Below are positions 6,001 to 9,000 of a stretch of 23,307 bases of DNA, one piece after another. This DNA comes from Escherichia coli (GTDB lineage: Bacteria; Pseudomonadota; Gammaproteobacteria; Enterobacterales; Enterobacteriaceae), in the NCBI RefSeq assembly GCF_003334255.1, contig NZ_QOWU01000066.1; one strand, given 5' to 3'. Made by a program: the position numbers. Every line of letters begins with the position of its first letter. Within the stretch, counting starts at the first letter, position 1.

Positions 6001-9000
6001 CTGAGCAATTGCGTTGAGCAATGCGTGCTTGGTCCAGGTGTGGAAGTGCTCGGTCAGACGATAGGTCGTACCCACATACGGGAACTGCTCTTTTTTACCC
6101 ATCCGCAGCGCGTCTTGTTCATACAGACGAACAACCGGGTTAGACACCACGTTCGGATGCAGCGGGTTAGTGCCCAGCGGCGTTTCAATCGGCTCGTAGT
6201 GTTCCGGGAACGGACCTTCCGCCATTTTGTTGATGGCAAACAGGCGTCCCATCCCTTCCGGCTGCATGATAAACGGCCCGGTTGGCGTACCCGGTGCGGC
6301 ATTGCCGAAGTCAGGAATATCGTTACCCGTCCACTTGCTGCCGTTCCACTGGATCAGCATCCGTTTCGGATCCCACGGTTTACCGTTGATATCCGCCGAA
6401 GCACGGTTGTACAGCACGCGACGGTTGAGCGGCCACGCCCAGGCCCATCCCAGCGTATTCCCCAGACCGGACGGGTCGGAGTTATCGCGGTTAGCCATCT
6501 GGTTGCCCTGCTCTGTCCAGCTACCGGTGTAGATCCAGCAAGAAGATGCGGTTGTACCGTCATCACGCAGATGCGCAAAGCTACTCAGCAACTGACCTTT
6601 CTTCGCAATAAGCACGCCATTAGCGTCATAGAGATCTTCCAGCGCGTAGCCGTTGTTCTCTTTAGCCACTTCGTCAGATTGCGGTTCGTGCGGCTGCTTG
6701 TAGTTCCAGCTCATCTTCATCAGCGGTTCTACGCCTTTACCACCTTCGGACTGGTACAGCTCGCGCAGATGATGGTAGATACCCGCCAGAATTTCACCGT
6801 CGTTACGCGCTTCGCCCGGCGCGTCCTGACCTTTCCAGTGCCACTGCAACCAGCGACCGGAGTTAGCGATAGAACCATCTTCTTCAGCAAAGCAGGTCGA
6901 AGGCAGACGGAATACTTCAGTCTGAATAGACGCCGGATCGACATCGTTCGACTCACCGTGGTTCTGCCAGAAGGTAGAGGTTTCAGTCACCAGCGGATCG
7001 ATAACCACCATGTACTTCAGCTTGCTCAGGCAGCTCACCACTTTGTTTTTGTCCGGGAAGGACGCAACCGGGTTAAAGCCCTGGCAGAAATAACCGGTGA
7101 CTTTGCCTTCATCCATCATGTTGAAATACTTGATGACGTCGTAGGTCTGGTCCCACTTCGGCAGCCAGTCATAGCCCCAGTTGTTCTCTTTCTGCGCGGC
7201 ATCGCCATAGAAAGATTTCATCAGGCTAACGAAGAACTTCGGATAGTTGCTCCAGTAGTTCACCTGATCAGCCAGCGTCGCTTTCGGCGTGTTCGCTTCC
7301 AGATACGACTGCAAATCAACCTGTTTTTCTGACGGCAGCGTCAGATAACCTGGCAGGCTGGTAGAGAGCAGGCCTAAGTCAGTCAAGCCCTGAATGTTGG
7401 AGTGACCACGCAATGCGTTCACGCCGCCACCGGCCATACCCATGTTACCGAGCAGCAACTGGATCATCGCCATAGTACGGATGTTCTGCGCACCCACAGT
7501 GTGCTGCGTCCAGCCCAGCGCGTACAGGAAGGTGGTTGTGCGATCCGGTGCGCTGGTGGAGGCCAGCACTTCACACACTTTCAGGAAGTCGGCTTTTGGC
7601 GTACCGCAGATGTTTTCAACGACGTCCGGCGTGTAGCGGGAAACGTGCTCTTTCAGCAAGTTCCACACACAGCGCGGATGAGTCAGTGTTTCATCGCGTT
7701 TCGCATAGCCGTTTTCATCGAACTGATAGTTCCAGGACGATTTATCGTATTGACGTTTTTCAGCGTCGTAGCCGCTGAACAGACCGTCTTCGAAAGCAAA
7801 ATCATCACGCACCAGCAGGCTGGCGTTGGTGTAATGCTTAACGTATTCGGCGTTGATTTTGTTGTTTTCGATCAGGTAGCGCAAAACGCCAGACAGGAAC
7901 GTAATGTCCGTACCGGAACGAATAGGCGCGTAAATATCCGCCACAGAAGCGGTACGCGTAAAACGGGGATCGACAACGATCAAGGTTGCGTCGTTGTTGT
8001 TTTTCGCTTCCATCGCCCAGCGGAAACCGACGGGATGCGCTTCAGCAGCGTTACCGCCCATCACCATCACGACGTTAGCGTTTTTGATATCCACCCAGTG
8101 GTTGGTCATCGCACCGCGACCAAATGTTGGAGCAAGACTTGCTACCGTTGGTCCGTGTCAGACGCGCGCCTGGTTGTCTACCGCCAGCATCCCGAGGGAG
8201 CGGGCAAATTTCTGGGTCAGCATCCCGGTTTCGTTGCTGGCACCGGAGGCACACAGCATACCGGTAGAAAGCCAACGGTTTACCGTTACGCCCTGCTCGT
8301 TCTTTTCAATAAAGTTAGCGTCACGGTCAGCTTTCATCAGCTTCGCAATACGGGAGAATGCTTCTTCCCAGCTAATGCGCTGCCATTTGTCAGAACCTGG
8401 CGCACGATATTCCGGGTAGCGCAGACGGTTTTCACTGTTGACGTAATCCAGCAAACCGGCCCCTTTCGGGCACAGCGCACCACGGCTTACCGGATGATCC
8501 GGGTCACCTTCAATGTGATAAATCGCTTCTCTGGCGTTTTTTGCGCCATCACCCAGGCTATACATCAATAGCCCGCAACCTACGGAACAGTATGTGCAGG
8601 TGTTACGGATCTCTTTAGCGCGTAATAATTTGTAGTTTCGCGCCTGAGCCAGTGCTTGCTTCGGGGCAAAGCCCAATGCCGCTACTGTTGTTCCAGCCAT
8701 ACCGCCCGCGCAGATTTTAAAAAATTGTCTGCGACTGACGTCCATTGCTTTCCTCTTTTTTCAGGGGTATTACTGCGCGAGGAAACTAACAGTAAAATTC
8801 TGAATCTTTTTGCGCGAAATCAAAAAGAACATCTGTTTGCCACAAAATAATCCGCCTTCGCAAATTGACCTACCTCAATAGCGGTAGAAAAACGCACCAC
8901 TGCCTGACAGGCCAGTTAAAAAAATGCTATAAAATTCAGCTTAATTTTTAACGGCAAGAGAGACAAAACAGCGAGCATGACACGACAAAAAGCAACGCTC

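What the first reader, a model, noticed from the sequence alone, without database searches (positions are those of the whole stretch)
8746..8976. Divergent fdnG / yddG control region with candidate FNR and NarL sites
The 231-nt intergenic region carries an FNR-like half-site pair (TTGATTTCGCGCAA, minus strand) about 70 nt upstream of the fdnG ATG and an inverted heptamer pair TACCTCA-AT-AGCGGTA about 60 nt further upstream. This matches the recalled architecture of the anaerobic, nitrate-induced fdn promoter. The candidate yddG promoter (CTGACA-18-TATAAA) lies just beyond the NarL-like site, so NarL binding could affect both divergent genes.
Basis: partly seen in the sequence, partly recalled or inferred. 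Interest (0 to 1): 0.35.

Follow-up and report, generated by a model that had tools for sequence, protein, structure and literature searches.

The report
Known fdnG–yddG nitrate/anaerobic control region

Summary
The 231-nt spacer (8746-8976) is 100% identical to E. coli K-12 MG1655 between fdnG (minus strand, ATG at 8745) and yddG (plus strand, ATG at 8977). The FNR-like site (8810-8823) and the inverted heptamer pair (8871-8886) have exactly the relative geometry published for fdnG: FNR at -42.5 and NarL heptamers at -100/-109. This implies a start site at 8774. Consensus matching alone is not above chance. However, in 62 Enterobacteriaceae orthologues the FNR site is almost invariant. A NarL-type 7-2-7 site sits exactly 62 bp upstream in 59 of 62 orthologues despite 50 different sequences. 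Published ChIP data show FNR bound here, far more strongly with nitrate. For yddG, the extended -10 element (TGCTATAAA) is conserved and the proposed -35 is not. NarL control of yddG remains untested and is not favoured. Verdict: a correct re-identification of a known control region, of low interest.

The parts
8743..8745 (-). fdnG start codon (ATG). The product begins MDVSRRQFFK, a twin-arginine signal.
   Evidence: Annotated as fdnG in K-12 and in strain 300709.
8749..8756 (-). fdnG Shine-Dalgarno region (AGAGGAAA)
   Evidence: GAGGA is conserved in the orthologue alignment.
8774..8774 (-). Inferred fdnG transcription start (A), giving a 28-nt untranslated leader (8746-8773), the start lying 29 nt upstream of the ATG. 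Inferred, not mapped here.
   Evidence: This position puts FNR at -42.5 and the heptamers at -100/-109, as cited in PMC3349551. It is A in 53 of 62 orthologues.
8783..8791 (-). fdnG core promoter: extended -10-like element TGTTAGTTT (TG, one base, TAGTTT), at -17..-9 in the published numbering
   Evidence: Near-invariant in 62 orthologues. The generic scan does not call it.
8810..8823 (-). FNR site TTGATTTCGCGCAA, centre 8816.5, at -42.5 (class II position)
   Evidence: 10.5 bits. TTGATTT-NN-C(G/T)CAA in 62 of 62 orthologues. Position cited in PMC3349551. FNR ChIP peaks.
8840..8852 (-). Strongly conserved block GATTATTTTGTGG (-78..-66). The consensus in other genera is GACTATTWAGKRG. The binding factor is not assigned.
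   Evidence: Information content is as high as in the FNR site. There are no polymorphisms in 11 Escherichia sequences.
8848..8854 (+). NarL heptamer '-77' (TAATCCG, 5 of 7 to TACYYMT)
   Evidence: Position taken from PMC3349551; sequence. The TA.TC part is conserved.
8865..8878 (.). Second FNR-like site TTGACCTACCTCAA (TTGAGGTAGGTCAA on the fdnG strand), centre 8871.5, at -97.5. It overlaps the -100 NarL heptamer and occurs only in Escherichia.
   Evidence: Top FNR-PWM hit in the whole window at 15.8 bits. Listed in Myers 2013 Table S6 at 1545292. Absent from the 57 non-Escherichia-type orthologues.
8871..8886 (.). NarL/NarP 7-2-7 site: TACCTCA (8871-8877, -100), AT, AGCGGTA (8880-8886, -109). 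Centre 8878.5, at -104.5.
   Evidence: A 7-2-7 match lies 62.0 bp from the FNR centre in 59 of 62 orthologues and 61.0 bp in the other 3. There are 50 distinct sequences, with a mean of 2.6 mismatches against 8.8 in the background. fdnG is named as a 7-2-7 example in PMC2718512.
8895..8901 (+). NarL heptamer '-124' (CACCACT, 5 of 7). Weak and not conserved.
   Evidence: Position from PMC3349551; sequence. Low information content.
8904..8909 (+).
   Evidence: Present but not conserved outside Escherichia and polymorphic within it.
8925..8935 (+). Candidate yddG extended -10: TG-C-TATAAA (8925-8933). An alternative hexamer is TAAAAT (8930-8935). The predicted start is about 8939-8942.
   Evidence: TGnTATA is invariant in the 43 orthologues stacked, and TTATAGCA is conserved in the alignment. 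No start-site data were found.
8977..8979 (+). yddG start codon

Best explanation
The spacer is the E. coli fdnGHI control region, shared back-to-back with yddG.

- Under anaerobiosis an FNR dimer binds the imperfect site at -42.5 (8810-8823). This site takes the place of a -35 element, which is the class II arrangement.
- RNA polymerase uses the conserved TGTTAGTTT element and starts at about 8774.
- The FNR site is weak, so FNR alone gives little transcription.
- With nitrate, phosphorylated NarL binds as a dimer to the 7-2-7 inverted heptamers at -100/-109 (8871-8886), helped by the flanking heptamers at -77 and -124. From a fixed distance of 62 bp it co-activates the FNR-dependent promoter. 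NarP can bind the same 7-2-7 site.
- yddG is read in the opposite direction from its own promoter, whose conserved part is an extended -10 (TGCTATAAA, 8925-8933).

Shown here: sequence identity to K-12, the motifs, their conservation and their fixed spacing. Taken from papers: FNR occupancy in vivo and nitrate-dependent, FNR-dependent fdnGHI activation. Inferred: the exact start sites, and how NarL helps FNR and RNA polymerase.
For: - Identity to K-12 MG1655 over the whole spacer is 100%. The same spacer, flanked by annotated fdnG and yddG, occurs in 5,414 of 5,426 complete E. coli genomes.
- The motif geometry equals the published positions: FNR at -42.5 and NarL heptamers at -77/-100/-109/-124 (PMC3349551 citing Darwin 1996). 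fdnG is listed among the four classical 7-2-7 promoters (PMC2718512).
- The divergent fdnG-yddG arrangement is kept in 62 loci from about 15 Enterobacteriaceae genera.
- In those loci TTGATTT-NN-C(G/T)CAA is invariant, TG-N-TAGTTT is near-invariant, and +1 is A in 53 of 62.
- The best 7-2-7 match of each spacer lies exactly 62.0 bp from the FNR centre in 55 of 62. At that fixed offset, 54 of 62 have 3 or fewer mismatches, against 0.09% of background 16-mers, and the site has 50 distinct sequences.
- FNR ChIP-chip and ChIP-seq peaks fall on yddG/fdnG (PMC1802558; PMC3688515).
- The FNR ChIP-chip signal-to-noise ratio is 6.2 in fermentation and 106.7 with nitrate. fdnGHI is scored as 'Activation' only with nitrate (PMC3974632 Tables S3/S4).
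- Myers 2013 place fdnG among operons that are FNR-bound but need nitrate/NarL for activation.
Against: - The primary mapping, footprint and mutagenesis papers (Li & Stewart 1992; Li et al. 1994; Darwin et al. 1996, 1997; Wang & Gunsalus 2003) are not in the held library. The positions therefore rest on secondary citations plus geometry.
- The -42.5 site scores below every ChIP-validated training site. It was below the threshold of Myers 2013, who listed the -97.5 site instead.
- ChIP summits cannot separate the two sites. The summit-to-site offsets visible in the excerpts of their own tables range up to about 75 bp.
- With +1 at 8774 the -10 hexamer sits at -14..-9, about 2 nt further upstream than usual.
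- The generic promoter scan finds nothing.
Confidence: 0.9

Rival explanations
1. The FNR site that matters in vivo is the stronger upstream one (8865-8878, -97.5) rather than, or in addition to, the -42.5 site. Without nitrate FNR would sit there, unproductively or as a brake, as at yfiD where FNR at -93.5 down-regulates. NarL-phosphate would then have to displace it, because the two sites share 8871-8877.
For: - It is the best FNR-PWM hit in the 23.3-kb window, at 15.8 bits against 10.5 for the -42.5 site.
- It is the only site in this spacer passing the Myers 2013 threshold. It lies 10.5 bp from their ChIP-seq summit, against 44.5 bp for the -42.5 site.
- FNR is bound without nitrate, yet fdnG shows no FNR-dependent expression then.
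- The site is unchanged in all 11 Escherichia sequences compared.
Against: - It is absent from all 57 non-Escherichia-type orthologues, whereas the -42.5 site is invariant.
- Seven of its 14 bases are the NarL heptamer, so half of the match comes for free.
- The summit precision of that ChIP-seq is too poor to tell the sites apart.
- The FNR signal rises about 17-fold with nitrate rather than falling. That is not what simple displacement predicts.
- There is too little variation within Escherichia to show selection.
Confidence: 0.2
2. The NarL 7-2-7 site is a shared operator. NarL bound there also regulates the divergent yddG promoter.
For: - The centre of the 7-2-7 site is 49.5 bp from the first base of the conserved yddG -10 hexamer. 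That puts it at about -61.5 of a predicted start at 8940. This distance is 49.5 in 31 of the 43 orthologues stacked, although the sequence in between is not conserved.
- NarL can activate from upstream positions by contacting the alpha C-terminal domain (PMC7419079).
- Both genes changed on CpxR activation in one study.
Against: - No yddG start site or nitrate-response data were found.
- In the ogt test system most single-site placements gave poorly active promoters. A construct with the site near -62 was among them, and only -77.5, -67.5 and -44.5 were reported as working.
- The spacing varies from 48.5 to 52.5 in some genera, which would break helical phasing.
- yddG showed no differential expression in the fnr mutant under nitrate although the region was heavily occupied.
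Confidence: 0.2
3. The motifs are chance matches in an AT-rich spacer and have no function.
For: Counts of consensus matches in the window are at or near shuffle expectation. The promoter scan is empty.
Against: The FNR site is invariant. The 7-2-7 site is kept at a fixed offset through 50 different sequences. FNR ChIP peaks fall here. The sequence is identical to an experimentally studied K-12 region.
Confidence: 0.01

Closest known systems
E. coli K-12 fdnGHI operon control region (Li & Stewart 1992; Li, Kustu & Stewart 1994; Darwin, Li & Stewart 1996; Darwin et al. 1997; Wang & Gunsalus 2003)
   Same: It is the same DNA, 100% identical over the spacer. The FNR site at -42.5 and the NarL heptamers at -77, -100, -109 and -124 map onto 8816.5, 8851, 8874, 8883 and 8898.
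   Different: Nothing differs in sequence. The primary papers could not be read here. The only addition from this work is a 62-species footprint.
nirB promoter (FNR at -41.5 plus a NarL/NarP 7-2-7 site at -69.5)
   Same: A class II FNR site plus an upstream 7-2-7 site gives nitrate-enhanced anaerobic expression (architecture recalled; NarL action at nir is cited in PMC3688515).
   Different: At fdnG the 7-2-7 site lies much further upstream (-104.5). No IHF or Fis anti-repression is documented here.
narG promoter (FNR at -41.5, several NarL heptamers at -80 to -200, IHF)
   Same: It is FNR-dependent and activated by NarL from far upstream sites (PMC4549865).
   Different: narG has no 7-2-7 pair and needs IHF bending. 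fdnG relies on a single 7-2-7 pair at a fixed 62-bp distance.
yfiD promoter (tandem FNR sites at -40.5 and -93.5, the upstream one down-regulating)
   Same: In Escherichia the fdnG region also carries two FNR-type sites about 55 bp apart, at -42.5 and -97.5. The title of the yfiD paper is cited in PMC3688515.
   Different: No function has been shown for the fdnG -97.5 site. It overlaps a NarL heptamer and is lineage-specific.

Membership tests
Class II FNR-activated promoter | Inverted repeat matching TTGAT-N4-ATCAA | tested here: met
   TTGAT-TTCG-CGCAA matches 8 of 10 consensus positions, and one half-site is perfect. The PWM score of 10.5 bits is below the validated set (minimum 11.7), so this is a weak site.
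Class II FNR-activated promoter | Site centred near -41.5/-42.5, overlapping the -35 region, at a fixed distance from the -10 element | tested here: inconclusive
   No start site was mapped here. The distance from the FNR centre to the conserved TAGTTT hexamer is invariant at 28.5 bp in 62 orthologues. The -42.5 position is cited in PMC3349551.
Class II FNR-activated promoter | FNR occupancy in vivo and FNR-dependent expression | not testable with these tools
   Taken from papers. 'Activation' of fdnGHI under nitrate is in PMC3974632 Table S4.
NarL/NarP 7-2-7 binding site | Two TACYYMT heptamers in inverted orientation separated by 2 bp | tested here: met
   TACCTCA-AT-AGCGGTA has 2 mismatches in 14 specified positions.
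NarL/NarP 7-2-7 binding site | Site maintained by selection (orthologous conservation of arrangement) | tested here: met
   59 of 62 orthologues have 4 or fewer mismatches at the identical offset, and 3 are shifted by 1 bp. There are 50 distinct sequences. In the background, 3 or fewer mismatches occur in 0.09% of 16-mers.
NarL/NarP 7-2-7 binding site | Binding of phosphorylated NarL/NarP, and loss of nitrate induction on mutation | not testable with these tools
   These results are reported in Li 1994 and Darwin 1996/1997, according to citations.
Sigma-70 extended -10 promoter (candidate yddG promoter) | TG one base upstream of the -10 hexamer | tested here: met
   TG-C-TATAAA lies at 8925-8933. 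TGnTATA is invariant in the 43 stacked orthologues.
Sigma-70 extended -10 promoter (candidate yddG promoter) | -10 hexamer with A at position 2 and T at position 6 | tested here: not met
   TATAAA ends in A, so the scan reports no promoter. The overlapping TAAAAT (8930-8935) meets the rule, but then the TG is 3 nt away.
Sigma-70 extended -10 promoter (candidate yddG promoter) | Transcript 5' end 6-8 nt downstream of the hexamer | not tested
   No entry for yddG was found in the start-site supplements that could be searched.

The most novel reading that the evidence does not exclude
In Escherichia only, a near-consensus FNR site (8865-8878, -97.5) has arisen on top of the promoter-proximal NarL heptamer. 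FNR and NarL-phosphate would then compete for the same DNA. FNR parked there without nitrate could hold the promoter down, as at yfiD, or could act on yddG. Nitrate induction would then be partly anti-repression. A 13-bp block at -78..-66, conserved as strongly as the FNR site, might additionally bind a factor not yet assigned.
Probability: 0.15. Interest if true: 0.35.

Novelty: already known. Interest (0 to 1): 0.1.

Why it matters
It matters little as a discovery. This is a textbook example of two-signal (oxygen and nitrate) promoter logic, and the window sequence is identical to the strain in which it was worked out. It also adds a cross-genus footprint showing which features are under selection: the deliberately imperfect FNR half-site, the exact 62-bp FNR-to-NarL spacing, an unassigned block at -78..-66, and the yddG extended -10 element. 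Finally, it flags the overlapping, Escherichia-specific second FNR site, which genome-scale studies have listed in place of the classical one.

Tried and rejected
- Primary papers. PMC180993, PMC206306 and PMC151514 are not held. The published positions therefore come from secondary citations.
- Start-site data. The Kim 2012 supplements have no yddG or fdnG entry. The Ettwiller 2016 supplements have no matching coordinates. Thomason 2015 is not held.
- Literature on yddG regulation by nitrate or NarL. Nothing relevant was found.
- A search for '-97.5' at fdnG found nothing.
- The generic promoter/terminator scan found no hits.
- Rfam found only the fdnG SECIS element and no RNA element in the spacer.
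- Using the ChIP-seq summit to choose between the two FNR sites was rejected. The summit-to-site offsets visible in the excerpts of the same tables reach about 75 bp.
- The 'ArcA motif' listed under this peak in PMC3974632 Table S5 was not used. The region is absent from that paper's ArcA ChIP tables.
- The published CpxR claim was checked. A 9/10 match, GGAAA-N6-GTAAA, lies at 8781-8796, but matches of 8/10 or better occur 1.8 times per kb in the window. It is not counted as evidence.
- Reading the -78..-66 block as a second 7-2-7 site, or as a CRP, ModE, IHF, Fis or OxyR site, by eye gave no convincing fit.
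Full report
**Where we are.** The window is E. coli DNA. A 501-nt query across the finding matches 5,414 of 5,426 complete E. coli genomes, always with fdnG and yddG annotated on either side. The spacer and its edges are 100% identical to K-12 MG1655, NC_000913.3 1547157-1547417, in reverse orientation. The conversion is K-12 coordinate = 1556146 minus window position. In the older U00096.2 numbering used by the ChIP papers it is 1554170 minus window position. I checked this against the site that Myers 2013 list at 1545292.

- fdnG runs on the minus strand from 8745. 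Its in-frame TGA, the selenocysteine codon, splits the ORF list into 8158-8745 and 5698-8109.
- Rfam finds a SECIS_3 element immediately after the TGA, at 8105-8163.
- yddG is 8977-9858 on the plus strand.

**The observation.**
- TTGATTTCGCGCAA lies on the minus strand at 8823..8810. Its centre is 71.5 nt from the ATG.
- TACCTCA-AT-AGCGGTA lies at 8871-8886. Its centre is 62 bp further upstream.
- CTGACA, an 18-nt spacer and TATAAA lie at 8904-8933.

As plain consensus matches these are not significant.
- FNR-type matches with up to 2 mismatches number 28 in the window, against 12.5 expected.
- 7-2-7 matches with up to 2 mismatches number 2, against 1.2 expected.
- The simple sigma-70 scan returns nothing on either strand.

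The sequence alone could therefore not have established function.

**Fit to published positions.** I could not open the primary papers. Babujee et al. 2012, citing Darwin et al. 1996, give the E. coli fdnG elements as FNR at -42.5 and NarL heptamers at -77, -100, -109 and -124 (PMC3349551). The FNR centre at 8816.5 and the heptamer centres at 8874 and 8883 are 57.5 and 66.5 bp apart. These distances equal -42.5 to -100 and -42.5 to -109 exactly.

This geometry fixes the start at 8774, an A on the minus strand 29 nt before the ATG. It places the other two heptamers at 8848-8854 (TAATCCG) and 8895-8901 (CACCACT), each matching the consensus at 5 of 7 positions. The MotifAdjuster paper independently names fdnG as one of four classical 7-2-7 promoters (PMC2718512).

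**Independent test by conservation.** A scan of one genome per species with the YddG protein returned 80 loci. In 62 of them, spanning Escherichia, Citrobacter, Salmonella, Enterobacter, Klebsiella, Raoultella, Kluyvera, Leclercia, Lelliottia, Kosakonia, Phytobacter and others, fdnG lies divergently upstream. The spacer is 219-368 nt. I stacked these spacers without gaps on the FNR site and also aligned them.
- The FNR site is TTGATTT-NN-CGCAA in 59 of the 62 and TTGATTT-NN-CTCAA in the other three. The imperfect half-site is therefore itself conserved.
- TG-N-TAGTTT at -17..-9 is nearly invariant. The base at +1 is A in 53 of the 62.
- The best 7-2-7 match anywhere in each spacer lies exactly 62.0 bp from the FNR centre in 55 of the 62 loci.
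- At that fixed offset, 54 of the 62 have 3 or fewer mismatches and 59 have 4 or fewer. Only 0.09% of background 16-mers from the same spacers reach 3 or fewer. Three loci are shifted by one base. The site exists as 50 different sequences.

Retaining the consensus at a fixed distance through this much sequence turnover is strong evidence of a functional NarL/NarP site acting in register with FNR.

**In vivo evidence from papers.**
- FNR ChIP-chip gives a peak labelled yddG/fdnG (PMC1802558).
- FNR ChIP-seq gives a peak at 1545300-1545309. It was classed among operons that are FNR-bound, show no FNR effect in glucose medium, and are activated with nitrate/NarL (PMC3688515).
- Federowicz et al. 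report FNR ChIP-chip signal-to-noise of 6.2 in fermentation and 106.7 in nitrate respiration at this region. fdnGHI is scored as 'Activation' only with nitrate, and yddG is scored as not differentially expressed (PMC3974632).

This pattern fits a weak class II FNR promoter that becomes productive when NarL is bound upstream.

- **A second FNR-like site.** TTGACCTACCTCAA at 8865-8878 is centred at -97.5. With a PWM built from 62 ChIP-validated sites (this one left out), it is the top hit of the whole window at 15.8 bits. The classical site ranks 7th at 10.5 bits, below the weakest training site. Myers 2013 list only this upstream site for the yddG/fdnG peak. It shares seven bases with the -100 NarL heptamer. 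It occurs only in the five Escherichia-type loci, and it is unchanged among 11 Escherichia sequences. The ChIP-seq summit is 10.5 bp from it and 44.5 bp from the -42.5 site. However, the summit-to-site offsets visible in the excerpts of the same tables reach about 75 bp, so this does not discriminate.
- **A conserved block at -78..-66.** This block (8840-8852) has the consensus GACTATTWAGKRG and is as conserved as the FNR site. It overlaps the -77 heptamer but extends beyond it. I could not assign a binding factor.

**yddG.** The -10 region is real by conservation. TG-N-TATA is invariant in the 43 orthologues stacked, and TTATAGCA is conserved in the alignment. It is best read as an extended -10 element, TGCTATAAA (8925-8933). 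Its last base is A rather than the usual T, which is why the scan does not call it. The overlapping TAAAAT (8930-8935) is an alternative hexamer.

The proposed -35, CTGACA, is not conserved outside Escherichia and is polymorphic within it.

With a predicted start near 8940, the NarL 7-2-7 centre would lie at about -61.5 for yddG. The 49.5-bp distance to the hexamer is kept in 31 of the 43 orthologues stacked but varies from 48.5 to 52.5 in others. In the ogt test system NarL worked from -77.5, -67.5 and -44.5, and the other placements built, including one near -62, were poor (PMC7419079). I found no data on a nitrate response of yddG. I therefore rate shared NarL control as possible but unsupported.

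One study reports CpxR binding to this spacer and CpxR-dependent changes in both genes (PMC9600279). The best CpxR-like box is at 8781-8796 and overlaps the fdnG -10 element. Matches of that quality are common in the window.

**Verdict.** The finding is a correct, sequence-only re-identification of the known fdnGHI control region. It is not novel. The remaining open points are the role, if any, of the Escherichia-specific FNR site that overlaps the NarL site, what binds the -78..-66 block, and whether yddG responds to nitrate.

Noticed in passing
window 8865-8878: A second FNR-like site, TTGACCTACCTCAA, is the best FNR-PWM hit in the whole window. It overlaps the -100 NarL heptamer, occurs only in Escherichia, and is the site Myers 2013 list under the yddG/fdnG ChIP-seq peak.
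   Followed up: yes
window 8840-8852: A 13-nt block at -78..-66 of fdnG (consensus GACTATTWAGKRG) is as conserved across 62 Enterobacteriaceae as the FNR site. It overlaps the published -77 NarL heptamer but extends beyond it. The binding factor is unassigned.
   Followed up: partly
window 8810-8814 (the CGCAA half of the FNR site): The non-consensus FNR half-site CGCAA is invariant in 59 of 62 species, and three have the better CTCAA. This suggests selection for a weak site that keeps the promoter dependent on NarL.
   Followed up: partly
window 8105-8163 (minus strand): An Rfam SECIS_3 hit (84 bits) lies directly downstream of the in-frame TGA that splits the fdnG ORF. This is the expected selenocysteine insertion element of fdnG.
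   Followed up: yes
window 8781-8796: A CpxR-like box, GGAAA-N6-GTAAA (9/10), overlaps the fdnG -10 element. A 2022 paper claims CpxR binds this spacer. Matches of this quality occur about 1.8 times per kb in the window.
   Followed up: partly
window 13037-13050 and 10574-10587: These are the next-best FNR-PWM hits in the window: GTGACGTTGATCAA (13.9 bits, inside narU upstream of narZ) and ATGACATTGATCAA (13.1 bits). Myers 2013 list the first as predicted but not ChIP-bound.
   Followed up: no
window 12460-12475: The only other 7-2-7-like match with 2 or fewer mismatches in the window is TACTCCTTTTGGGATA. It lies inside the narU coding region and is probably a chance match.
   Followed up: no
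loci L012, L016, L009, L023, L024 (fdnG leader); L042; L057: Citrobacter and Salmonella orthologues carry an insertion of about 55 nt in the fdnG 5' leader. Enterobacter wuhouensis and Phytobacter diazotrophicus carry insertions of about 147 and 108 nt. The upstream FNR/NarL module is unchanged in all of them.
   Followed up: no
window about 10118-11762 (downstream of yddG); locus L089: In the 100%-identical strain 300709, the genes after yddG (the yddL porin fragment and the leucine-rich-repeat gene) are annotated as pseudogenes. In strain FEA3 the 5' end of fdnG is missing and the gene is annotated as partial.
   Followed up: no
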